In this document: one piece after another, positions 1-35,490 of the stretch
Position numbering within the stretch: the stretch's first letter is position 1
Layout of the letters: each line of letters starts with the position of its first letter
Assembly (NCBI GenBank): GCA_013359335.1
Contig: JABWBZ010000016.1
Coordinates: forward strand, 1-35,513
Length of the DNA stretch: 35,513 nucleotides
Direction: 5' to 3'
From: a bacterium
Lineage (GTDB): Bacteria > CLD3 > SB21
The notes under the pieces: generated by a model
Seen by the model: the letters and a program-made list of their open reading frames with translations, nothing else
Databases searched by the model: none
Told to the model about the DNA's origin: nothing
Position numbers and translations under genes: made by a program

Positions 1-935
1 ATTTTAGAATTCAATCCCCCGCCGTTGTCTTTGACCATAAGATTCAACCGGTCATTTTCCAGCGAGGAAATAATTTCAAGTATACCGGTTTTGGTAAAAG
101 GCGCAATACCGTGACGAATTGCATTTTCCACAATGGGTTGTAATATCAAATTGGGTACGCGCGCATTCAACGTATCCGGATCGATTCGAGTGACAATTTG
201 CAGCCGTTCGCCAAGCCGTGTCCTTTCAATTTCCAGATACTTATTCAGAAACTCCATTTCCTGAAATAATGCCACTTCTTGTGCGCCCACATAATCCAGA
301 GTCAAACGAAGTAAATCGCTCAATTGTGCGATCATCCTTTCTGCGTCATCGGGTTTCGTATGAATGAGCGCGGTGATTGCGTGCAGCGTATTAAATAAAA
401 AATGAGGATTGAGTTGCATTTTAAGCGCTTGCAATTGCGCCTGAGCCAGCTGTGATTGCAATTGCGCTGATCGAAGTTCGCTCTCGCGATAACTTCGGTA
501 GACACCCGCGCCTTGTTGAACGCCTAGAATAATCCAGTAAGCAAGAACATTCCAATGAAACTTAAAAATCAAGGTTGATTGGATAGCTTTGACATACGCA
601 GTTGTCGAATATTCGGAACGAAGCAGCATATTAACCAATGAATAAACCGTCAGGTGAATGACAGCAAACCCTGCGCATGAAAGCAAGTGAAGCGGAACAT
701 GCCTCAACGGGTACGCCCGAATGGAAAATCGACGGCCGAGTGTAAGAATCAACGGCGACAACAGTCCCCATGTGTACCATTCCGGCAAAGCATATATGAG
801 CGAATCTGTCCAGCGAATCGGCTGACGATACGAATACATCAGATAATTTTGACTGGCAAAAAATAATCCGACGAACGTCCAGACTCCAAACAAAACTGTA
901 ATTCGTCTGGCGGCATTTTTAGATGGTAAAGGCAT
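1..935 (-). CDS. LytS/YehU-type membrane sensor histidine kinase, 3' end runs off the window
   Basis: Not in the ORF track because it lacks a stop in the window. Manual translation from ATG at 935: MPLPSKNAARRITVLFGVWTFVGLFF..., hydrophobic segments, then MQLNPHFLFNTL (LytS H-box), LQPIVENAIRHG (N-box) and VKDNGGG (G1 box) at the window edge. Confidence 0.92.
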   Translation of the reverse strand, partial: MPLPSKNAARRITVLFGVWTFVGLFFASQNYLMYSYRQPIRWTDSLIYALPEWYTWGLLSPLILTLGRRFSIRAYPLRHVPLHLLSCAGFAVIHLTVYSLVNMLLRSEYSTTAYVKAIQSTLIFKFHWNVLAYWIILGVQQGAGVYRSYRESELRSAQLQSQLAQAQLQALKMQLNPHFLFNTLHAITALIHTKPDDAERMIAQLSDLLRLTLDYVGAQEVALFQEMEFLNKYLEIERTRLGERLQIVTRIDPDTLNARVPNLILQPIVENAIRHGIAPFTKTGILEIISSLENDRLNLMVKDNGGGLNSK

Positions 936-1088
936 AAGTAAAAAATCGGATAAAATGGTAATAACCTTCAACGATCTGACAATTTAATTGTTCCAAAACT
1001 CTTTTTGCGAAATATCTTTTCGTCTATTATATTGGGCTCACCTTTCTTCGTTTTCTCCTTATAATCACCAATTGCAGGAGAAGATACC

Positions 1089-1538
1089 ATGCTCATTACA
1101 AGTCCGGCTTTTTCAGAAGGCGAATTGATTCCATCGAAATATACGTGCGACGGATCTAATTTTTCACCGCCTTTAAATTGGCAGGATGCACCGCCATCCG
1201 CCAAAAGTTTTGCTCTCATCTGCGATGACCCCGATGCGCCACGCGGAACGTGGGTTCACTGGATATTGTTTAATCTCCCGTCAAACGTTCACGCTCTGCC
1301 CGAGCATATTCCCGCGCAGGAAATTATCGCCGGCGGCGCCAAACAAGGCATCAATGATTCTCACTCCACCGGCTACGACGGCCCGTGCCCACCCGGCGGA
1401 ACGCACCGGTATTATTTCAAACTCTATGCACTCGATACGACACTGGAAATTAAACCCGGTATCACCAAAGCCGATCTGCTCAAGGCCATGAAGGGACATG
1501 TTCTGGCGGAAGCGCAATTAATGGGACGTTACAAGTGA
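1089..1538 (+). CDS. YbhB/YbcL family (PEBP / Raf kinase inhibitor-like) protein
   Basis: Motifs SPPLNW, DPDAP, WVHW, YDGPCPP, HRYYF; AGGAG SD upstream. Confidence 0.95.
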   Translation: MLITSPAFSEGELIPSKYTCDGSNFSPPLNWQDAPPSAKSFALICDDPDAPRGTWVHWILFNLPSNVHALPEHIPAQEIIAGGAKQGINDSHSTGYDGPCPPGGTHRYYFKLYALDTTLEIKPGITKADLLKAMKGHVLAEAQLMGRYK

Positions 1539-4202: not shown

Positions 4203-6485
4203 TTAACCTTGTAAAACTTTAAGAACGGCAGCCGGTGTCATCGGCAATTCGCGAATGCGTACGCCGGTCGCGTGATAAAACGCATTGGCAATAGCCGCGG
4301 CCGTCGGTACCGTGGCCGGTTCGCCGATGCCCATCGCGCCGGTACTGCTCTGGCCGTTGTTGACGTCGATGATGATCGATTCGATTTCCGGCATATCGAG
4401 CGATCCGGCAATTTTGTATTGATCGAAATTTGCATTCACCATCAATCCGGTATTTCTGTCGAGAAGACGATTTTCAAACAGCGCATAGCTGATGCCTTGA
4501 ATCACGCCGCCGTTGATCTGACTCTCGAGCGTCAATCGATTCATCGGACGGCCGCAGTCATGCACGGCGACAACACGTTTAACCTTGATAACGCCGGTCT
4601 CAGTATCGACTTCCACTTCGGCGAACTGCACGCCTGCGAGCAATCGCGGCCGTACTTCTAAATGATCTTTGAGCCGTTCGCCGATCACGGTGAATTTATC
4701 GCCCGGAATTTTTGACGCAACTTGTTTCCATGTCAAATTTTTCGAAGGATTAGCTGCGACGACAATTTTTCCATCCGTCAAATCAAGTTCTTCCGGCTTT
4801 ACGCCAAGAAGCGGCGCGGCGATGTCGAACATTTTCATTTTCGCAAGATACGCCGCATTGCGCACTGCCGGAGTGATGCCGGCCGTTGTCTGGCTACCGC
4901 CGCTGGCGGGGCCAAGCCCGTACTGCGTGTCTCCGATTTTGACGACAATATCTTTCGGCTGCAATCCCAGTTCCTCCGCCGCCACCATCGCCATGACCGT
5001 CCTGATGCCGCCGCCAATATCCTGAACGCCGTTCGTCAGTTCGAGCGAACCGTCGCTATTGACCTGAATCGCGGCCTGAAATCCGGCGCCGGTAATATAA
5101 TACCAGACGGAATTGGCCATACCGTAGCCTTTTTTTATAGGGCCTTTATCGGCCGCAACTTTAGGATTTCGTTTTTCCCAGCCGAATTTTTTCGCACCGA
5201 TTTCATATTCAGCCATTCGAACAAGGTCGGTCGCGGAATTTAATTTTCTGAATTCCAAAGGATCCATAGCGAGTTTGTATGCCAGTTCATCGATCGATTG
5301 TTCCAATGCAAAAGCGCCTTGCGGAAAACCGGGCGCCCGGAAAGCCGCTCCGGGCCCGGCATTGATAAACACGTCCGATTCTTCCGTAAAAATATTATCG
5401 ACGGTAAAATACATTACGCGCGCCGGTCCGGCCGAACCCGCGCCGGTTCCAACCCCGGCGGTACCGTAAGACAATAATTTGATCGCTTTCAATTTTCCGT
5501 CTTTTCCGGCGCCAATTTTAAGAGTTTGGACGGAACTCGGGCGATTGCCGACAGCCAAATGTTCTTCTTTGCGATTGAGCATCAACCGTACGGGCGCTTT
5601 GGTTTTTTTGGCTAATTTGGCGGCCATGGCGCCGTACACTCCGGCTCCGAATTTGGCGCCGAAGCCGCCGCCCATGTATTCGGTATACACCCTTACGTTA
5701 GTTTTCGGAAGTTGAAATACGTCGGCCAATTCATCGCGCACGCTGAACGTACCTTGTGTCGACGCCCAGACCGTCAGTTGATCGTCAGCATCCCAGCGGG
5801 CAACAACCCCGTGTGTCTCCATGGCCGAGTGCGTTTGAACCTGCGTCGTATACGTGGCTTCGACGACCACGTCGGATCCGGCCAACGCCGTGTCGACCTG
5901 AGATAAATTGCCGTTCGTTCTCGGGCCGCGGACATTGCCTTTTTGTGAAACTTTCGCCGCGCCGCCGGGCGCATCGCCTTCCGTTTTTTTCTCTTCGACG
6001 GTTTCATCGAATACCAGAATTTTTCCGTTTTTGGCTTTCTCAATATCCACGACGAACGGCTTGCGCTCGTATTCGACGGCAACTAATTTTAAAGCCTCCT
6101 CCGCCTGATGCTGCGTTTCAGCGGCAATCGCCAGAATTTCCTGACCGGCAAAACGCACTGCCATCGGCCACTGTTCTTTGACCGGAATAACGGCTTTGAC
6201 GCCGGGATATTTTTCCGCTTTGGAAGTATCGACACTTTTTACAACAGCCGACGCGTGCGGTGATCGCAGAAAAACCGCGTGCAACATGCCCGGCAATTGA
6301 ATATCGAACGTGTATTTGGCTTTGCCGGAAACTTTATCCATGCCGTCGTTGCGCGACGTTTTGCCGCCGATGAACTTAAGTTGATCGCCGCCGTCCCACG
6401 GTTTGGGCGTATTATCGGCAATGTCGACCGTTATGTCTTTTAAATTTTTTTCTACGCCGAGTTTGAGCGTGACTTGTTTGGACAT
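4203..6485 (-). CDS. Xanthine dehydrogenase family molybdopterin-binding subunit, PaoC/YagR-like
   Basis: KVSGKAKY, GGGFGAK, FRAPG, SGGSQT, GGVIQG, GIGE (catalytic Glu). Confidence 0.96.
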   Translation of the reverse strand: MSKQVTLKLGVEKNLKDITVDIADNTPKPWDGGDQLKFIGGKTSRNDGMDKVSGKAKYTFDIQLPGMLHAVFLRSPHASAVVKSVDTSKAEKYPGVKAVIPVKEQWPMAVRFAGQEILAIAAETQHQAEEALKLVAVEYERKPFVVDIEKAKNGKILVFDETVEEKKTEGDAPGGAAKVSQKGNVRGPRTNGNLSQVDTALAGSDVVVEATYTTQVQTHSAMETHGVVARWDADDQLTVWASTQGTFSVRDELADVFQLPKTNVRVYTEYMGGGFGAKFGAGVYGAMAAKLAKKTKAPVRLMLNRKEEHLAVGNRPSSVQTLKIGAGKDGKLKAIKLLSYGTAGVGTGAGSAGPARVMYFTVDNIFTEESDVFINAGPGAAFRAPGFPQGAFALEQSIDELAYKLAMDPLEFRKLNSATDLVRMAEYEIGAKKFGWEKRNPKVAADKGPIKKGYGMANSVWYYITGAGFQAAIQVNSDGSLELTNGVQDIGGGIRTVMAMVAAEELGLQPKDIVVKIGDTQYGLGPASGGSQTTAGITPAVRNAAYLAKMKMFDIAAPLLGVKPEELDLTDGKIVVAANPSKNLTWKQVASKIPGDKFTVIGERLKDHLEVRPRLLAGVQFAEVEVDTETGVIKVKRVVAVHDCGRPMNRLTLESQINGGVIQGISYALFENRLLDRNTGLMVNANFDQYKIAGSLDMPEIESIIIDVNNGQSSTGAMGIGEPATVPTAAAIANAFYHATGVRIRELPMTPAAVLKVLQG

Positions 6486-10847: not shown

Positions 10848-12719
10848 TCATGCTTTTACATTATCGACCATGAGTTTGGCGACGAGTTTCGCAAAATTAG
10901 ACGGATCTTTCGGCTTGGAACCTTCCAACAAAAGCGCCTGATCGTACAAAAGCCCGGCGTATTCTTTTAACGTCGGGTGACTCTTGTCTTTTTCGAATAA
11001 CGCATTCATCGATTCGAAAAGCGAGTGCGAGGGATTGAGTTCTAAAATGCGTTTGCCGCCGGGAACGCTTTGTCCCATGGCTTTGAGGATGCGCTCCATA
11101 TTCTGATCCATATCGCCTTCATCGGCCACCAGCACGCACGCGGAGTCTTTAAGGCGGCTCGAAAAACGAACTTCTTTCACATCGTCTTTCAAAACGTCTT
11201 TGATGAGGTCGATCAGTTTTGAATATTTTTTCTGCGCATCTTTTTTCTGTGTTGCACGAGTCTTGTCGATGTCAATGTCGCCTTTAGTAACCGATTTTAC
11301 TTTTTTGCCCTGATATTCCAGTTCGTGTGAAATAAAGTCATCGATTTCATCCAACAGAAAAAGCACTTCGTAATCTTTTTCTTTGAAGGCTTCCAAATAA
11401 GGCGATTTTTCGAGTTCCTCGCGCGACGATCCGGTTATGTAATAAATTTCCTCCTGGCCGGATTTCATGCCGTCGACGTAATTTTTCAGCGTCGTGTATT
11501 TTCCGCGTTCCGTACGGGTCGATTCGAATAACATTAAATCGCGAAGGGCATCCTTTCGTTGCTGATCGACGTAGAGGCCTTCTTTGAGCGATTTACGAAA
11601 TTCATTATAAAATTCGACGTATTTTTCATATTCCGCCGTTTTCATTTCCGACAGCGTATCGAGAACTTTTTTGGTAATGTTTTTCTTAATGACTTCGATC
11701 TGGCGATTGGATTGCAAAATTTCACGCGAGACATTCAATGGCAGATCGGAGGACTCGACGACGCCTTTGACAAATCTCAAATAGACCGGAAGCAGTTCCT
11801 CACAGTGATCCATGATCTGTACGCGTTTGACATACAACGTCGGTCCGATTTTGTATTCTTTGTAAAACAAATCGAATGGCGCTTTTTGCGGAATAAAAAG
11901 CAACGCGGAAAATTCCGACGTACCTTCCGCTTTGAAATGAATCACTTTCGCCGGATCGGTAAAGTCATGAGAGACGTGTTTATAAAACTCGTTGTATTCT
12001 TCGGCTGTAATTTCCGATTTATCCTTCAGCCAGATTGCTTTTCTGGAATTGAGAGTTTCTTCGGTGATTTTTTTGTCTTTTTCAACATCCATACAAATCG
12101 GATGTTCGATATAATCGGAATATTTTTTGACAATACGGCGAATTTCCCATTCATCCAGAAAATGTTTTTCATCTTCTTTCAGATACAAAATCACGTCCGT
12201 ACCGCGCGAGGACCGTTCAAACGATTCGATTTCAAACGTTCCTTCCGCCTTCGATTCCCACCGAACGGCTTTATCTTTGGGCTCGCCCGCTTTACGTGAA
12301 ATGACGGCGATTTTTTCGGCCACCATAAAACCCGAATAAAAACCGACGCCAAACTGGCCAATGAGTTCAGGATGATCCTTGATTTGCTGAGAACTCAAAT
12401 GCTGTAAAAATTCTTTGGTACCGGAATGCGCAATGGTACCGAGCGAACGCACGATGTCCTCTTCATTCATTCCGATTCCGTTGTCGCTGATAGTAAGAGT
12501 GCCGGCTGACTTATCGGCTTTGATTTTGATTTTCCAATCGGCGTCGCCTTCGATAATCGATGTATTGGTCAGCGATTCATAGCGCACTTTATCAATGGCG
12601 TCGGACGCATTGGAAAGCAATTCACGCAAGAAAATTTCTTTATGGGAATACAGCGAATGGATCATCAGGTCCAGAAGCTGTTTCACTTCGGCCTTAAACT
12701 GCAGAGTCTGAACGGACAT
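10848..12719 (-). CDS. htpG: Molecular chaperone HtpG (Hsp90)
   Basis: FKAEVKQLLDLMIHSLYSHKEIFLRELLSNASDA, DNGIGM, IGQFGVGFYS, LPLNVSREILQ; GAGGTG SD before ATG 12719. Confidence 0.98.
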   Translation of the reverse strand: MSVQTLQFKAEVKQLLDLMIHSLYSHKEIFLRELLSNASDAIDKVRYESLTNTSIIEGDADWKIKIKADKSAGTLTISDNGIGMNEEDIVRSLGTIAHSGTKEFLQHLSSQQIKDHPELIGQFGVGFYSGFMVAEKIAVISRKAGEPKDKAVRWESKAEGTFEIESFERSSRGTDVILYLKEDEKHFLDEWEIRRIVKKYSDYIEHPICMDVEKDKKITEETLNSRKAIWLKDKSEITAEEYNEFYKHVSHDFTDPAKVIHFKAEGTSEFSALLFIPQKAPFDLFYKEYKIGPTLYVKRVQIMDHCEELLPVYLRFVKGVVESSDLPLNVSREILQSNRQIEVIKKNITKKVLDTLSEMKTAEYEKYVEFYNEFRKSLKEGLYVDQQRKDALRDLMLFESTRTERGKYTTLKNYVDGMKSGQEEIYYITGSSREELEKSPYLEAFKEKDYEVLFLLDEIDDFISHELEYQGKKVKSVTKGDIDIDKTRATQKKDAQKKYSKLIDLIKDVLKDDVKEVRFSSRLKDSACVLVADEGDMDQNMERILKAMGQSVPGGKRILELNPSHSLFESMNALFEKDKSHPTLKEYAGLLYDQALLLEGSKPKDPSNFAKLVAKLMVDNVKA

Positions 12720-30830: not shown

Positions 30831-31752
30831 ACTGCGCGCGGAAATCCAAAAAGTTATTGTCGGACAATCGTACGTGATCGATCACGCGATGATTGCCTTG
30901 TTCAGCGGCGGCCACGTTTTGCTTGAAGGCGTTCCGGGCACTGCCAAAACGCTTCTCGTAAAAACAATGGCGATGGCGATGACCGGCGATTTCAAACGCA
31001 TTCAATTTACGCCCGATCTAATGCCATCGGATGTTGTCGGTACAAATGTTTTCGATTCCAAATCATCCGCTTTCGTATTGAAAAAAGGCCCGATTTTTAC
31101 CAACCTTGCGTTGATCGACGAGGTCAATCGCGCCCCGGCCAAAACACAGGCTGCTTTGTTGGAGGTTATGGAAGAACGGCAAGTAACTATTGATGGCACA
31201 CGTTATCCGTTGTCCGAACCGTTCATCGTTTTTGCCACGCAGAATCCTATCGAATACGAAGGCACGTACGCGCTGCCTGAGGCGCAGTTGGATCGTTTTA
31301 TGTTCAAAATCATGATCGATTATCCCGCGGCTGAAGAAGAAAATCAGATCCTGAGAAATTATCATCACGGATTTACGACGCGCGATCTTTCCAGCGCTCA
31401 TGTCGGCAGCGTCGTCACGCCGGCCGATATCGAGCGATGCCGCGCGGAAATTCAAAACGTTAAAATCGAAGAAAGCGTGATCGGCTATATTACGCAAATC
31501 GTACGCAAAACGCGCGACTACCCCAGCATACTGGTCGGCGCCAGCCCGCGCGCCGCCGTGTCCTTGCTCCTTGCTGCCAAAACCCGTACGGCGATGCGCG
31601 GCCTCGATTATGTCAATCCTGACGATATTAAATTTATCGCACGCCCCGTGTTGCGCCATCGTATCCTGCTGCAGCCGGAGATGGAATTGGAAGGCATTCG
31701 TTCCGACGAAGTCATCGGAGAAATTCTCAACATCGTGCCGGTGCCGCGATGA
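30790..31752 (+). CDS. MoxR family AAA+ ATPase
   Basis: GHVLLEGVPGTAKT, RIQFTPDLMPSD, DEVNRAPAKTQAALLE, ATQNPIE, LPEAQLDRF. Confidence 0.97.
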   Translation: MENPSTMTQTVADKLRAEIQKVIVGQSYVIDHAMIALFSGGHVLLEGVPGTAKTLLVKTMAMAMTGDFKRIQFTPDLMPSDVVGTNVFDSKSSAFVLKKGPIFTNLALIDEVNRAPAKTQAALLEVMEERQVTIDGTRYPLSEPFIVFATQNPIEYEGTYALPEAQLDRFMFKIMIDYPAAEEENQILRNYHHGFTTRDLSSAHVGSVVTPADIERCRAEIQNVKIEESVIGYITQIVRKTRDYPSILVGASPRAAVSLLLAAKTRTAMRGLDYVNPDDIKFIARPVLRHRILLQPEMELEGIRSDEVIGEILNIVPVPR

Positions 31753-33407
31753 AACAGACATCTCCTTCGGCGTGTTCGTCCCTTCAACTCCGCCCAGGAA
31801 TCGAACTCCTGCTTTTATTCATTTTGACAGTACACGGCTATTCGCAAAAATTCATAAGCATCACCATCGATGATCCGCATACGGAATCCACGCCTTTGCT
31901 GTTGTGGCCAGAACGCAACGATCGCATTCTAAACGCTCTCCAAACTAATGATTTGAAAGCCGCGTTGTTTGTTTGTGGCAAGCGCGTGGACAACGATGAA
32001 GGACGCGAACTCCTGAAAGCTTGGGATCGCAATAATCATCGAATCGCCAATCATTCGTACTCTCATTTTTATTTCCACTCGAATAAACAAACGTTACAAT
32101 CTTTTCAAAATGATTTCCTCAAAGGCGATTCGGTTATTCAATCGTACCGTAATTATACCAAGTTATTTCGATTTCCCTATTTGAAAGAAGGCAACTCGAT
32201 CGAGAAACGCGACGGCTTTAGAAATTTTCTACAGGAACAGCGTTACCAAAACGGTCATGTAACCATCGACGCTTCCGATTGGTATGTTGATCAACGCCTG
32301 CGCGACACATTGGCCAAAAATCCGAATGCCGACTTGACGGGTTACAAAGAATTTTACATCCGGCATATTTTAGATCGCGCAGAATATTACGACGGTCTTG
32401 CGCGTGAATATGTAAAACGTCCGATCTTTCACACGCTTTTGCTTCATCACAATCTTCTCAATGCCCTGTTCCTGGATGCGCTTATTCAACGGCTTAAACA
32501 AAACGGATGGACGTTGATCGATGCCGACAGCGCGTACACCGATTCCGTTTATTCGCTAAACCCGGATGTTACTCCGGCCGGCGAAAGTTTAGTGTGGGCG
32601 ATTGCGAAAATCAGCGGCGCCACGGGTTTACGCTATCCGGCAGAAGACGGTCTGTACGAAAAAGAAAAATTAGACAGCTTCTTGTTGAAATTTGATGCCG
32701 CCTGGCGCGATACTTTAACCGGAATGAATTTCCAAAAAATCAAACCGGGAGAATTTTTAATGGGGCTTCAAAACGACTCAAGCGCGCCGCCTCATTCCGT
32801 ACGTATTACCAAACCGTTTTTCATCAGCCGCTACGAAGTGACGCAAAAGCAGTGGAGAACGATTATGGACACCAACCCAAGCCAATTCAAAGATTGCGGT
32901 GATGATTGCCCGGTTGAAAATGTTAATTGGTTCGAGGTAAAAAAATTTATCGAAAAGCTGAATGCCAGAACCGGGTTGACATTTCGATTGCCTACTGAAA
33001 CCGAATGGGAATATATTTGCCGCGCCGGAACATCGACGGCGTTTAATACCGGTGACGTTCTGACAACGGATCAAGCTAATTATGACGGCAACTGGCCGCA
33101 CGGAAATTCCGCTAAAGGAATTTTCCGCGCCAAACCGCTTCCGGTCGGAAGTTTTGCGCCGAACGCATGGAACATCTACGACATGCATGGTAACGTTTGG
33201 GAATGGTGCGAAGATGATTTCTGCCCGTATCCCGACGCAACAGAAACGGATCCTTTGCGTATCTGCAGCGCCGGTAAAAAAATCATCCGCGGCGGCAGTT
33301 GGTATTTCGGCGCTGACATCGCGCGAAGCGGGCGCCGTTATACGCACGAGCCGCAAGATCGCGGCCCGAGCCTTGGATTCCGGTTGGTTCGGGAAATCAC
33401 ACCATAA
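31749..33407 (+). CDS. Polysaccharide deacetylase (CE4) fused to an FGE-sulfatase/SUMF1-fold domain
   Basis: TIDD, NHSYSH, FRFPY, DASDW, LLLH; then FLMG, YEVT, RLPTETEWEY, DMHGNVWEW, RGGSW, GFRLV. Confidence 0.9.
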   Translation: MKQTSPSACSSLQLRPGIELLLLFILTVHGYSQKFISITIDDPHTESTPLLLWPERNDRILNALQTNDLKAALFVCGKRVDNDEGRELLKAWDRNNHRIANHSYSHFYFHSNKQTLQSFQNDFLKGDSVIQSYRNYTKLFRFPYLKEGNSIEKRDGFRNFLQEQRYQNGHVTIDASDWYVDQRLRDTLAKNPNADLTGYKEFYIRHILDRAEYYDGLAREYVKRPIFHTLLLHHNLLNALFLDALIQRLKQNGWTLIDADSAYTDSVYSLNPDVTPAGESLVWAIAKISGATGLRYPAEDGLYEKEKLDSFLLKFDAAWRDTLTGMNFQKIKPGEFLMGLQNDSSAPPHSVRITKPFFISRYEVTQKQWRTIMDTNPSQFKDCGDDCPVENVNWFEVKKFIEKLNARTGLTFRLPTETEWEYICRAGTSTAFNTGDVLTTDQANYDGNWPHGNSAKGIFRAKPLPVGSFAPNAWNIYDMHGNVWEWCEDDFCPYPDATETDPLRICSAGKKIIRGGSWYFGADIARSGRRYTHEPQDRGPSLGFRLVREITP

Positions 33408-33418
33408 GGAATGACCCT

Positions 33419-34411
33419 ATGATCCGCTCGTATGCTGCAACTGCAAAAAAAAGCATTCTTACTCCGTTTGAATTTACACTTCCGCCGCTTACGGACGTGG
33501 ATGTGGTCATTGCTGTAAAATATTGCGCGCTGTGTCACAGCGACATTCATCTGATCGACGGCGATTGGGGCATCGCAAAATATCCGCTCGTGCCCGGGCA
33601 TGAAATTATCGGACAGATTGTTCAAATCGGAAACAAAGTTGCCGGTTTTTCAGAAGGCCAATGGGTAGGCGTGGGCTGGCAGTCCGGTTCGTGCGGCCAA
33701 TGCGCGCCATGTACTCACGGAATGGAACATCTCTGCGTCACCGGAAAAAAACGTACGTGCGTCAACGGCTTTGGAGGTTTGTCCGAAAAAGTCGTCATTG
33801 ATAGCCGGTTTGTGTACGCGATCCCCGATGGTTTTGAACTGATTTCCGCTGCGCCGCTGATGTGCGCGGGTTTGACGGTATTTTCGCCGTTGGAAAGACT
33901 ATTGCTATCGGATGTACAGCGAGTCGGCGTCATCGGTATCGGCGGGCTCGGCCACCTCGCCGTGCAAATGGCCAAAGCGATGGGCGCGGAAGTGTACGCA
34001 TTTGACAGCGTTTCTGAAAAAGCAAAATCAGCCGAAGTGCTCGGCGCGATCCCCCTTCACGATCCGAAATCCGCGCCGCCGATGAATTTGATTTTGTCGA
34101 CGTCTTCGGCGCAACTCGACTGGAATTTCTGGATGGAACGGCTCGATTTTAACGGGGTTTTTTGTCTGGTGGGTTATCCGCCGGGCGATGTTGCCGTCGC
34201 CAACGATCATTTATTGGACGGACAAAAATCAATTACCGGCAGTGTGATCGGAAGTCCGGCGACGATGCGGCACATGCTGCAGTTTTGTTTACGCCATTCG
34301 ATCCGGCCTCATATTGAAACGATGCCATTTTCGCGTGTGAATGAAGCGCTCGACAGAGTACGCGCAGGAAAAGTCAATTTCAGAATGGTGCTCGAAAACG
34401 ATTGGAAGTAA
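33419..34411 (+). CDS. Zn-dependent NAD(P) alcohol dehydrogenase (cinnamyl-ADH/Ahr-like)
   Basis: CHSD, PGHE, CGQCAPC...C, APLMCAG, GIGGLGH. Confidence 0.95.
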   Translation: MIRSYAATAKKSILTPFEFTLPPLTDVDVVIAVKYCALCHSDIHLIDGDWGIAKYPLVPGHEIIGQIVQIGNKVAGFSEGQWVGVGWQSGSCGQCAPCTHGMEHLCVTGKKRTCVNGFGGLSEKVVIDSRFVYAIPDGFELISAAPLMCAGLTVFSPLERLLLSDVQRVGVIGIGGLGHLAVQMAKAMGAEVYAFDSVSEKAKSAEVLGAIPLHDPKSAPPMNLILSTSSAQLDWNFWMERLDFNGVFCLVGYPPGDVAVANDHLLDGQKSITGSVIGSPATMRHMLQFCLRHSIRPHIETMPFSRVNEALDRVRAGKVNFRMVLENDWK

Positions 34412-34726
34412 AATTCATATTTTTCTACCTACCTGAACAGATAATTTTTTTTATTTTCTTGCCAATTCAAGCCACAATTCACCCGTTCAGATAAAAAATC
34501 GCCGAGATATCATCAAAAAAATTCCATCGATTTTTCTGGAAAAATGAGCGCTTTCGAGTCTTATTAATAAAAAGAACGTTGAAATAAAAAAAACGTCTTT
34601 TTTAAACTCGAAGAGCTCTAGCTTCCTAGGGACTTACAGGCTACTCAATCCTTCCCGTTTCTTGCTGACCCAAAGAAACTGCGACGCTGAAGGCTGCACG
34701 AAGCCTTTTGTGTCAGACATTGTGGT

Positions 34727-34979
34727 AAAAAAATCGTCGTATGACGGCTTACGTTGACCAACGTAAGGCCTACGATAAGCATTTTAGCTTATAAAATCGT
34801 CATTTTAGGCTTATCGATCATGACTCTAAACCTAACGATCAGCATTTTACGCTTAACGATGACAATCGTAAGCCTAACGATTAGCATTTTATGCTTAACA
34901 ATGACGAATCGTAAGCCTAACGATTGTCAATTTACGCTTAACGATGTCGATTTACGCCATAAATTATAAAATTTATGGC
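34727..34979. repeat. Degenerate 21-bp tandem repeat array (about 11-12 units) with 42-bp higher-order structure
   Basis: Units start at 34727, 34748, 34769, 34790, 34811, 34832, 34853, 34874, 34895 (22 nt), 34917, 34938 (20 nt), 34958 (22 nt). Examples: ctaacgatcagcattttacgc / ttaacgatgacaatcgtaagc / ctaacgattagcattttatgc. Confidence 0.9.
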
Positions 34980-35040
34980 CTAAGCGCCGATCAATTTGTT
35001 TAGATAAGCGCTTGTTAATATCAATTTTAGGCATTGTTAC

Positions 35041-35049
35041 TGATACAAT
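35041..35049 (+). promoter_or_regulatory. Possible extended -10 promoter for the 35089 gene
   Basis: TGaTACAAT, 40 nt upstream of the ATG; no clear -35. Confidence 0.4.
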
Positions 35050-35088
35050 GCTTTGTTTTAATCCATTAAATAAAAAGGAGTTAGCAAA

Positions 35089-35451
35089 ATGGCTAAAAAT
35101 GAGCATGTGCGTCTGTCTCCAACCGTGGTCCAGGCAGATCGTGACGCCGTAGCGGCATTGCAAAAGATCGCCGGTTATACGCCGAATAATCCGGCTTACA
35201 GCTTGGCAGCAGTTCAAACCGCCCACAATGACATGCTGGCGGCACAGGCAGCCGAAGCCCAGGCGTACGCTGCACTGGCAACGGCACGCGACGTCGCTAC
35301 AGCTAAAGAATGGGCCTATCATAACCTGATCCTCGGCGTCAAGGATCAGGTCAGCGGGCAATTCGGTAAAAACTCAAACGAACTGCAGTCGCTCGGCCTC
35401 AAAAAGAAATCCGAATATAAAACTCGCGGCCGGACGCAGAAAAAAGAATAA
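35089..35451 (+). CDS. Hypothetical all-alpha protein (120 aa) with a basic C-terminal tail
   Basis: AAGGAG SD at 35075-35080; Ala-rich helices; QFGKNSNELQSLGLKKKSEYK. Confidence 0.9.
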   Translation: MAKNEHVRLSPTVVQADRDAVAALQKIAGYTPNNPAYSLAAVQTAHNDMLAAQAAEAQAYAALATARDVATAKEWAYHNLILGVKDQVSGQFGKNSNELQSLGLKKKSEYKTRGRTQKKE

Positions 35452-35459
35452 ACCGGAAA

Positions 35460-35490
35460 GTCACCCCGAACTTGGTTCGGGGTATGTGAC
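35460..35490. repeat. REP-like hairpin downstream of the 120-aa gene
   Basis: accccgaac-ttg-gttcggggt stem, flanked by gtcac...gtgac. Confidence 0.55.

What the first reader, a model, noticed from the sequence alone, without database searches (positions are those of the whole stretch)
34727..35451. Phased 21-bp palindromic repeat array paired with a small basic helical protein: candidate undescribed system
Seen: about 11-12 contiguous units of period 21 (two helical turns), consensus roughly yTAACGAT-nnnn-ATyKTAnGC. Two alternating types form a 42-bp repeat (34832-34873 vs 34874-34916: 3 substitutions, 1 insertion). Units are internally dyad-symmetric (perfect cttacgttg-ac-caacgtaag at 34748-34767). 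A +1 unit (34895) is compensated by a -1 unit (34938), restoring register. There are no unique spacers, so it is not CRISPR. The array ends about 110 nt before a lone 120-aa gene with a K/R-rich tail. From memory and unverified, similar proteins in cyanobacteria and Bacteroidota often lie beside 21-bp arrays annotated as heptad-repeat ORFs. Inference: the protein polymerises on the array as DNA (centromere/iteron-like or autoregulatory), or binds a repeat RNA in a layout reminiscent of type III toxin-antitoxin loci.
Basis: partly seen in the sequence, partly recalled or inferred. Interest (0 to 1): 0.88.

Follow-up and report, generated by a model that had tools for sequence, protein, structure and literature searches.

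The report
Small protein with phased 21-bp arrays
A small, widespread, unnamed bacterial protein almost always carries a lineage-specific array of 21-bp repeats in front of its gene, most likely docking sites on the DNA for the protein itself, which would make it a new kind of gene regulator.

Summary
The array is real. There are 10-11 units of 21 bp at 34748-34957, with a 42-bp super-repeat, ending about 130 nt before a lone 120-aa gene.

Among 73 homologous loci from at least five phyla, 50 have a 21/42/63-bp periodic array within 450 bp upstream of the gene. Only 2 of 1475 control windows do. A Nostoc megaplasmid copy shows the same layout.

- **Array sequences** are lineage-specific and paralog-specific, often short palindromes with variable spacers, and they share no common motif.
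- **Neighbours:** no gene is conserved next to the family, and none of the 80 loci holds a ParA-like ATPase.
- **The protein** has no Pfam, NCBIfam, PADLOC or PDB match. It is predicted to be a long-helix antiparallel homodimer.
- **Extra arrays:** in 7 of 11 genomes or records, arrays of the same motif also sit beside unrelated genes. In this genome that gene is a UG21-like reverse transcriptase.
- **Other readings:** coding, CRISPR and type III toxin-antitoxin readings are not supported.

Best reading (about 0.55): a new family of dimeric DNA-binding regulators that coat cognate arrays phased at two helical turns. They would control their own gene and a few others. Binding has not been shown.

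The parts
34727..34747 (.). Degenerate leading unit of the array (aaaaaatcgtcgtatgacggc).
   Evidence: family D2: 34733-34786 resembles 34796-34849 (63%). Read.
34748..34957 (.). Core array: 10 head-to-tail units of 21 bp (one of 22, one of 20). Two unit types alternate, yTAACGAT-nnnn-ATTTTAyGC and TTAACGAT-gac-AATCGTAAGC, giving a 42-bp super-repeat. The first unit is a perfect 9+2+9 palindrome.
   Evidence: Genome-wide it is one of only three 21-bp-period arrays.
34952..34983 (.). Inverted repeat TTACGCCATAAATT / AATTTATGGCCTAA at the gene-proximal edge of the array.
   Evidence: pair I6 (14-nt arms, 93% complementary, 4 nt apart).
34984..35074 (+). Spacer between array and gene, the likely promoter and leader region. 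It holds a terminator-like hairpin at 35029-35053 followed by TGTTTT. This hairpin is not a conserved feature of the family.
   Evidence: hairpin; such a site lies between array and ATG in only 4 of 51 homologous loci. The only promoter-like hits lie upstream of or inside the array, none in this spacer, so the promoter is unassigned.
35075..35080 (+). Shine-Dalgarno-like AAGGAG, 8 nt before the ATG.
   Evidence: Read.
35089..35451 (+). Gene for the 120-aa protein P0001. Its N-terminal half is variable and its C-terminal half conserved (R67 D68 ... W75 ... H78 N79 ... G93 ... S96 ... GLKKKSEYK), with a basic tail. It is predicted to be a long-helix antiparallel homodimer.
35460..35490 (+). Hairpin after the stop codon (CCCCGAA-cttgg-TTCGGGG, flanked by GTCAC/GTGAC). 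It has no T-run, and the contig ends at 35513.
   Evidence: Read.

Best explanation
The 120-aa protein belongs to a large, unnamed family of small helical proteins that form two-fold symmetric dimers. Each member recognises its own short DNA motif.

That motif is laid out 5-15 times at exactly 21 bp (two helical turns) just upstream of the member's own gene. Dimers therefore sit side by side on one face of the DNA and coat it cooperatively. This nucleoprotein stretch sets transcription of the gene itself (autoregulation).

Where a second array of the same motif exists, the protein would also control the gene beside it. In this genome that is a UG21-like reverse-transcriptase defence island on contig C27.

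**Shown:** the array; its conserved coupling to the gene family; the 21-bp phase; paralog-specific motifs; extra arrays beside other genes; and the absence of any other conserved partner gene.

**Inferred:** that the protein is the binder; that it polymerises; and the direction of regulation (repression or activation).
For: 1. **Coupling.** 50 of 73 upstream windows (-450..-1) of homologs have their best self-match at lag 21, 42 or 63, with at least 55% identity over 126 nt. Only 2 of 1475 control windows from the same loci do. The best lag is a multiple of 21 in 68 of 73 windows, whatever the strength. Seven of the 80 loci lacked 450 nt upstream and were left out.
2. **Independent example.** Nostoc sp. 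UHCC 0926 plasmid pn1 has a 21 x 7.3 array directly before a 133-aa homolog.
3. **No other partner.** No neighbouring gene is conserved among the 80 loci. In 8 loci the module sits inside the gap-pgk-tpiA-secG neighbourhood.
4. **Selection on a core.** Within each array a short core is kept while the spacers vary. Dyad symmetry is significant in 21 of 57 arrays at p<=0.05 and in 12 at p<=0.01, against column shuffles.
5. **Specificity follows the protein.** Arrays are recognisably alike only when the proteins are at least about 70% identical. In 4 of 4 same-genome paralog pairs with both arrays detected, the arrays are unrelated. This includes the window's protein against its 45%-identical paralog at C171, whose motif AACC-N6-yGTT is kept in the same-genus ortholog.
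6. **Trans action is plausible.** I chose 11 genomes or records for their strong arrays and searched each with its own array. Seven hold a further array of the same motif beside an unrelated gene: a UG21-like RT with DUF559, an AMP-binding enzyme, an AtuA ferredoxin-like gene and a GNAT gene, DUF4440, an aldo/keto reductase with DUF6632, a Lon-N-like gene, and an MnmA-like gene. None of the chromosomal second-array loci encodes a family member; the Nostoc record was not in that check and its second array lies 1.4 kb from the homolog.
7. **Dimer.** Complex prediction supports a homodimer: score 0.75 against a best of 3 controls of 0.00. That mark was reached by 20 of 30 proteins solved as pairs of one chain and by 1 of 23 solved as single chains. 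The runs agree in at least 91% of contacts and the partner's pLDDT is at least 85. The contacts (59-63, 70-52, 77-45) indicate an antiparallel pair. The monomer model has pLDDT 91, with one 54-residue helix, 39-92. By my arithmetic that is about 80 Å, close to the 71 Å of 21 bp.
8. **Variable versus constant halves.** Positions 6, 7, 10, 12, 13 and 38-50 vary, while 66-111 are nearly constant. This fits a changeable reading surface on a constant scaffold.
9. **DNA rather than RNA or coding.** See the rival explanations.
Against:
- The protein has no recognisable DNA-binding fold: Pfam, NCBIfam, PADLOC, PDB sequences, and Foldseek against PDB and BFVD all gave nothing significant.
- The variable region is not basic.
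- Only 21 of 57 arrays show significant dyad symmetry although the predicted dimer is symmetric. Some arrays (L016, L032, L020) look like plain direct repeats.
- 23 of 73 upstream windows fall below the 55% threshold. One relative in the same taxonomic family (L096) has no visible array.
- Sigma-70-like promoter matches are ambiguous: the best match lies downstream of the array in 25 loci, upstream in 14 and inside it in 6, out of 45. Whether arrays are transcribed therefore stays open.
- One 151-nt contig from an RNA library lies on 34654-34804, depth 2. The library may also hold DNA.
- Co-divergence of array and protein is also what shared descent alone would give.
Confidence: 0.55

Rival explanations
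1. The arrays are cis-regulatory DNA that works without the family protein. They could be intrinsically bent upstream DNA, since any unit repeated every two helical turns adds up to a curve. Or they could be sites for some other host factor. Either way they drive or silence the small gene, whose product does something unrelated to the array.
For: No motif is shared across 41 lineages: the top 5-mer occurs in 5 lineages, which equals the 95th percentile of the null. This is what a shape-only element would show. The protein has no known DNA-binding fold. Its C-terminal half is very conserved while the arrays are not.
Against: Cores are conserved within an array while spacers vary. The same core is kept in second arrays elsewhere in the genome and in a same-genus ortholog. 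This points to sequence-specific reading. Each paralog in one genome has its own motif, 4 of 4 pairs. A different, lineage-specific factor would have to co-travel with the gene, yet no neighbour is conserved.
Confidence: 0.2
2. The module is a centromere-like or anchoring site. The protein coats the array and uses its conserved basic tail (GLKKKSEYK) to engage an unlinked ParA/MinD-type ATPase or another conserved cellular machine. This would position or organise that piece of DNA.
For: Phased arrays upstream of the gene for a small dimeric binder are the layout of plasmid centromeres such as parC-ParR and the omega heptads (recalled; the review PMC5016525 was seen only as a search listing and abstract start). 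The terminal K-rich peptide is nearly invariant. One copy lies on a 1-Mb Nostoc megaplasmid.
Against: No NTPase is linked. 0 of 911 ORFs in 80 loci carry a deviant Walker A motif near the N-terminus, and no neighbour cluster is conserved. Most copies are chromosomal, among housekeeping genes. Second arrays sit directly upstream of ordinary genes, like operators.
Confidence: 0.1
3. The repeats act as RNA: a transcribed repeat leader that binds the protein, either as a type III toxin-antitoxin-like pair or as a protein sponge.
For: In the window, two hairpins follow the array, one of them terminator-like, just before the ribosome-binding site. One RNA-library contig covers 34654-34804. In some loci the best promoter-like match lies upstream of the array, 14 of 45.
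Against: - A terminator-like site lies between array and ATG in 4 of 51 loci on the gene strand, against 3 of 51 on the opposite strand.
- Several cores are palindromes with a 0-1-nt centre (GAACTnAGTTC, GAGTgACTC, ATGACGCGTCAT). These cannot make hairpin loops.
- At dyad positions, G:T mismatches (27) equal A:C mismatches (25), so neither strand shows wobble tolerance. This used the 21 dyad-symmetric arrays only.
- In Nostoc the same array orientation serves a divergent gene.
- No PADLOC or Pfam toxin family matches, and no Rfam family overlaps the arrays.
Confidence: 0.07
4. The arrays encode heptad-repeat peptides, since 21 bp is 7 codons.
For: Open frames run through the arrays of C145 and C27, reading LTISILR and LTINILC heptads.
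Against: Of 57 arrays, 8 have no open frame on either strand, 10 are open only on the opposite strand and 7 only on the gene strand. L065 and L099 have a 43-bp period. The window array has +1 and -1 units. A stop-free 21-bp unit is open by construction.
Confidence: 0.01

Closest known systems
Plasmid centromere-binding proteins with repeat arrays (ParR-parC of type II partition; omega and ParG ribbon-helix-helix proteins). Details recalled. The review PMC5016525 was seen only as a search listing and abstract start.
   Same: A small dimeric protein has its gene preceded by an array of short phased repeats that it coats cooperatively, doubling as an autoregulatory operator.
   Different: No linked ParM/ParA/TubZ-type NTPase. 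Mostly chromosomal, lone genes. No ribbon-helix-helix or other known fold was detected. Extra arrays sit upstream of ordinary genes.
Iterons and Rep initiators of theta-replicating plasmids (recalled).
   Same: Repeats of about 19-22 bp, spaced at two helical turns, sit next to the gene of the protein that binds them. The sequences are lineage-specific and define specificity.
   Different: The protein has 120 aa and no Rep or winged-helix signature. The loci are chromosomal, between housekeeping genes. No origin features were examined or seen.
BldC of Streptomyces, a 68-residue MerR-like protein that binds DNA direct repeats as cooperative multimers (PMC5859096; search listing and abstract start only).
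   Same: A very small regulator whose operators are variable numbers of tandem repeats bound by cooperative multimers.
   Different: Unrelated sequence: there is no MerR hit in Pfam. The arrays here are much longer (5-15 units), strictly 21-bp phased, and tied to the regulator's own gene.
Type III toxin-antitoxin loci such as ToxIN (recalled; PMC12283969 seen only as a listing).
   Same: A tandem repeat array directly precedes a single protein gene. In the window, a terminator-like hairpin lies between them.
   Different: The hairpin is not conserved, 4 of 51 loci. The units are 21 nt rather than about 36 (recalled). The protein is helical with no ToxN/AbiQ match. The sequence features point to double-stranded DNA.

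Membership tests
CRISPR array | Identical repeats separated by unique spacers of similar length. | tested here: not met
   Units abut head to tail with no unique spacers.
Type III toxin-antitoxin (ToxIN-like) | A transcription terminator lies between the repeat array and the toxin gene, as a conserved feature. | tested here: not met
   Terminator-like site in 4 of 51 loci on the gene strand and 3 of 51 on the other strand.
Type III toxin-antitoxin (ToxIN-like) | The protein is a ToxN/AbiQ-type endoribonuclease. | tested here: not met
   No PADLOC or Pfam hit. The AlphaFold2 model is all-helical, with one 54-residue helix.
Plasmid partition cassette (centromere + adaptor + NTPase) | An adjacent gene for a ParA/ParM/TubZ-type NTPase. 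| tested here: not met
   No conserved neighbour in 80 loci. 0 of 911 ORFs carry KGGxGK[ST] near the N-terminus. ParM and TubZ were not searched by profile.
Plasmid partition cassette (centromere + adaptor + NTPase) | The adaptor has a ribbon-helix-helix or helix-turn-helix DNA-binding fold. | tested here: inconclusive
   No strand in the monomer model and no Pfam or Foldseek match. Residues 5-9 of both chains do lie in the predicted dimer interface, but the coordinates could not be inspected.
Iteron-Rep replicon | A Rep initiator protein (winged-helix domains) encoded next to the iterons. | tested here: not met
   120 aa, with no Pfam or NCBIfam family.
Any curated protein family (Pfam-A, NCBIfam, PADLOC, PHROGs, PDB) | A match above the curated or significant threshold. 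| tested here: not met
   0 families in Pfam, NCBIfam and PADLOC. Best PHROG E=0.0012, of unknown function. Best PDB sequence hit E=0.26.
Sequence-specific DNA-binding autoregulator with tandem operators (functional class, not a homology family) | The protein binds the repeats upstream of its own gene. | not testable with these tools
   Only indirect support: coupling, paralog-specific motifs, second arrays and a predicted dimer.

The most novel reading that the evidence does not exclude
The family is a new class of programmable DNA-coating protein. Rod-like antiparallel dimers, each about one 21-bp unit long, would polymerise end to end on a private, fast-evolving array. The result is a stable nucleoprotein filament that acts as more than an operator, for example as a bistable (epigenetic) switch or a transcriptional roadblock or insulator. 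It is found inside operons (gap-pgk|tpiA, atuA|atuA-Fd) and in front of accessory and defence genes. Several orthogonal protein-array pairs coexist in one cell.
Probability: 0.2. Interest if true: 0.85.

Novelty: new variant of a known kind. Interest (0 to 1): 0.74.

Why it matters
**Size and spread.** The profile search finds 813 clusters at 50% identity with E<=0.001. Members occur in Acidobacteriota, Verrucomicrobiota, Chloroflexota, Bacteroidota including Ignavibacteria, Cyanobacteriota and Accumulibacter. The family has no name, no domain assignment and no structural relative.

**An unusually clear clue.** It nevertheless comes with a conserved, strictly phased repeat array whose sequence is private to each lineage and each paralog.

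**If the protein reads its own array:**
- It would be a new DNA-binding fold with easily re-targeted specificity.
- It would be a natural set of orthogonal protein-operator pairs.
- It would be a new way of wiring accessory genes. Here that includes a defence-type reverse transcriptase.

**Annotation.** The finding also explains why gene callers place spurious 'heptad-repeat' ORFs, and N-terminally extended versions of the protein, at these loci.

Tried and rejected
It was repeated with 9 closer sequences.
- **Known-family searches found nothing:**
  - Pfam, NCBIfam and PADLOC gave no family. PHROGs gave only weak hits of unknown function.
  - The PDB sequence profile search gave a best E of 0.26.
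  - Foldseek gave 0 hits against PDB and a best E of 1.9 against BFVD.
  - Rfam gave only a chance miRNA-like hit, E=0.19, on the window region and nothing overlapping the arrays in 11 loci.
- **Phage link:** none in 50,697 phage records or in IMG/VR by peptide patterns.
- **Fused forms:** none among proteins of 288-2000 aa, which is weak evidence by the tool's own warning. The best 150 representatives are 77-212 aa.
- **A motif common to all arrays:** none beyond chance.
- **Promoter placement** by consensus scan was ambiguous. I noted by eye good -35/-10 pairs just after the arrays of L016 and L089, but did not test them.
- **Joining the contig end** (C145) to C27 or any other contig by shared end k-mers of 20-127 nt found no overlap.
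- **Reads:** RNA runs X21 and X22 laid nothing on the stretch. RNA run X20 covers only 34654-34804. The parts without cover say nothing about expression. DNA run X1 covers the whole stretch in pieces.
- **Second arrays:** not found with the BLAST query in G016, G023, G025 or G026.
- **RT homolog:** not found in the 19 other genomes held for the phylum.
- **Specificity residues:** comparing close protein pairs that have diverged arrays (L027/L028 and others) did not single any out.
- **Literature:** four full-text searches found no description of this family or of such arrays. Supplements were not consulted.

Full report
**1. The observation**

The window is a whole contig (G000:C145), and the finding lies at its right end.

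Tandem Repeats Finder reports a period-21 array at 34772-34945 (8.2 copies, 61% matches). The same stretch also appears as a period-42 array at 34801-34950 (3.5 copies, 83% matches).

Read directly, there are ten units from 34748 to 34957, with a degenerate one before them:
- Two unit types alternate, yTAACGAT-nnnn-ATTTTAyGC and TTAACGAT-gac-AATCGTAAGC.
- One unit has 22 nt and one has 20.
- The first unit is a perfect 9+2+9 palindrome.

The 120-aa ORF at 35089-35451 has a Shine-Dalgarno-like AAGGAG and a basic tail.

A scan of the whole 3.5-Mb genome for tandem periodicity at lags 10-69 finds seven regions. The only three with a 21-bp period are this array, one at C171 and one at C27.

**2. 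The coupling is conserved**

The protein has 188 word-indexed homologs, all 'hypothetical' and without Pfam domains. An exhaustive profile search finds 813 clusters at 50% identity with E<=0.001.

I fetched 80 loci from one-genome-per-species contigs. They come from Acidobacteriota, Verrucomicrobiota, Chloroflexota and Bacteroidota, including Ignavibacteria.

Tandem Repeats Finder shows arrays of period 21, 42, 63, 84 or 105 about 60-400 bp upstream of the gene in most of them.

I then ran an autocorrelation test:
- 50 of 73 upstream windows have their best lag at 21, 42 or 63, with at least 55% self-match. Only 2 of 1475 control windows do.
- 68 of 73 have a multiple of 21 as their best lag at any strength.
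- Seven loci without 450 nt upstream were dropped.

A Nostoc megaplasmid homolog (34% identity) has a 21 x 7.3 array directly upstream. A protein-atlas cluster of 170 members is mostly cyanobacterial.

**3. Anatomy of the arrays**

Arrays have about 4-15 units. Each lineage has its own unit. Many contain a short palindrome plus a variable spacer:

| Locus | Core |
|---|---|
| L050 | GAACTnAGTTC |
| L064 | GAGTgACTC |
| L025 | CGATAT-n3-ATATCG |
| L031 | TTTAC-n6-GTAAA |
| L089 | ATGACGCGTCAT |
| Nostoc | TGCATT-n3-AATGCA |

Other findings on the arrays:
- Dyad symmetry beats column shuffles in 21 of 57 arrays at p<=0.05 and in 12 at p<=0.01. The rest look like direct repeats.
- No k-mer is shared across 41 lineages beyond chance.
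- Array similarity follows protein identity. Arrays are alike when the proteins are at least about 70% identical, and at background level below about 60%.
- In eight syntenic gap-pgk-[array-gene]-tpiA loci the proteins are only 39-68% identical and the motifs differ.

**4. The motif is private to a paralog, not to a genome**

G000 has a second family member at C171:2168-2527 (45% identity). It has its own 11-unit array (AACC-N6-yGTT), and the same-genus ortholog keeps that motif.

In 4 of 4 same-genome paralog pairs with both arrays detected, the arrays are unrelated. Two more pairs were dropped because one array fell below detection.

The family is patchy: 5 of 15 genomes of the taxonomic family carry it.

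**5. Extra arrays beside other genes**

The window's motif recurs at C27, as 7-8 units with 73% identity over 160 nt. That array sits about 110 nt upstream of a low-GC gene for a UG21-like reverse transcriptase (PADLOC E=1.9e-54). A DUF559 endonuclease-like gene follows it.

In two relatives the same core gene is followed directly by a MogA-like gene. The array with the RT is therefore an insertion.

I searched ten further genomes or records, chosen for their strong arrays, with their own array. Counting G000, 7 of 11 hold an additional array of the same motif:

| Genome or record | Gene beside the extra array |
|---|---|
| Nostoc pn1 | Aldo/keto reductase, plus a single site near DUF6632. All 16 sites in 1.04 Mb lie within 1.6 kb. 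|
| G015 | DUF4440. The array is interrupted by an N-run. |
| G022 | AMP-binding enzyme |
| G024 | AtuA ferredoxin-like gene, and a GNAT gene |
| G027 | Lon-N-like gene |
| G028 | MnmA-like gene |

G016, G023, G025 and G026 had none. The labels MogA-, Lon-N- and MnmA-like are my reading of the translated sequences, not profile hits.

None of the chromosomal second-array loci encodes a family member. The Nostoc record was not part of that check; its second array lies 1.4 kb from the homolog gene.

**6. DNA, RNA or coding?**

- **Coding.** 8 of 57 arrays have no open frame on either strand, and there is no consistent coding strand. Two arrays have a 43-bp period.
- **RNA.**
  - Palindromes with a 0-1-nt centre cannot form hairpins.
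  - G:T and A:C mismatches at dyad positions are equal, 27 against 25, in the 21 symmetric arrays.
  - A terminator-like site between array and ATG occurs in 4 of 51 loci, against 3 of 51 on the other strand. The window's hairpin at 35029-35053 is therefore not a family feature.
  - No Rfam family matches.
- **Phase.** The period of 21 bp, occasionally 21.5, equals two turns of B-DNA.
- **Still open.** Promoter prediction is ambiguous. One contig from an RNA library lies on 34654-34804, so transcription through part of the array is not excluded.

**7. The protein**

It matches no family in Pfam, NCBIfam or PADLOC. No PDB sequence or fold match is significant.

AlphaFold2 with 120 sequences gives pLDDT 91. 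The model has helix 11-26, one long helix 39-92, a short helix and a basic tail.

The homodimer test passes:
- The score is 0.75, against a best of 3 controls of 0.00.
- That mark was reached by 20 of 30 proteins solved as pairs of one chain and by 1 of 23 solved as single chains.
- The runs agree in at least 91% of contacts, and the partner's pLDDT is at least 85.
- The contacts indicate an antiparallel pair centred near residue 61, with residues 5-9 of both chains in the interface.

This supports a dimer but does not show one.

Conservation is split. The residues MAKNE..R8, D17, Y30, P32 and N34, and the whole stretch 66-111 (R67 D68, W75, H78 N79, K85, Q87, G93, S96, GLKKKSEYK), are nearly invariant. 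Positions 6, 7, 10, 12, 13 and 38-50 vary.

No fused forms were found. No phage copies were found. No neighbour gene is conserved and no ParA-like gene is nearby.

**8. Interpretation**

The only element that always travels with the array is the gene itself. The array's core is under selection, and it is private to each paralog. It can also appear in front of other genes.

The simplest account is that the protein is a sequence-specific dimer that coats its own phased array and so regulates itself and a small regulon. I put this at about 0.55.

The rivals are:
- array function independent of the protein, by bent DNA or another factor (0.2);
- a centromere or anchoring role using an unlinked ATPase (0.1);
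- an RNA-level role (0.07);
- coding repeats (0.01).

Binding, polymerisation and the sign of regulation are inferred, not shown.

**9. Novelty**

The logic of a small binder plus a phased repeat array at its own gene is known from plasmid centromeres, iterons and repeat-binding regulators such as BldC.

Four things match none of these: the protein family, the strict 21-bp phase across phyla, the long arrays at lone chromosomal genes, and the orthogonal pairs within one genome.

Four full-text searches found no description.

Noticed in passing
G000 contig C27:805-2442 (-) and 239-631 (-); locus L002/L102: A low-GC island holds a UG21-like reverse transcriptase (PADLOC E=1.9e-54; Pfam RVT_1) and a DUF559 endonuclease-like protein. 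It is inserted after a conserved gene that in two relatives is followed directly by a MogA-like gene. The island carries the same 21-bp array type as the window.
   Followed up: partly
G000 contig C171:1716-1970 and 2168-2527: A second family member (45% identical) has its own, different 21-bp array (AACC-N6-yGTT, 11 units).
   Followed up: yes
G000 contigs C143:4012-4571, C237:1087-1343, C119:1-163, C65:2743-2930: Other tandem periodicities in the genome: lags 66-67 and 69, which is CRISPR-like spacing by my recollection, and lags 14/28 and 12. None was examined.
   Followed up: no
L012:192-274, L023:600-679, L076:6359-6467 and many other loci: Acidobacterial loci are rich in heptamer tandem repeats (122 period-7 rows in 80 loci). 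They often form inverted pairs that would make long hairpins after genes.
   Followed up: no
L028:6401-7831 and 11319-11365; L089:7131-7178: Seven Acido-Lenti-1 RNA motif matches above the Rfam gathering score, six of them in L028 and five within 1.5 kb just downstream of the family gene there.
   Followed up: no
window 34980-35093: In DNA run X1 two contig variants cover the array-to-gene spacer. They differ at 6 places (35010-35063), including inside the terminator-like hairpin, which suggests strain-level variation.
   Followed up: no
window 31749-33407 and 33419-34411: Upstream genes: a 552-aa fusion of a polysaccharide deacetylase domain and an FGE-sulfatase domain, and a zinc-type alcohol dehydrogenase. 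An A/T-rich 300-bp gap separates them from the array.
   Followed up: no
L050:~5515-5530 and L092:~1540-1620: Runs of N, either masked sequence or gaps, lie next to or inside the two GAACTnAGTTC arrays of that genome. Their full lengths are therefore unknown.
   Followed up: no
L016:6001-6345 and 11820-12176; L085:6001-6324 and 974-1318 (-): Two family genes lie within 6 kb of each other in two genomes. This suggests local duplication or repeated insertion.
   Followed up: no
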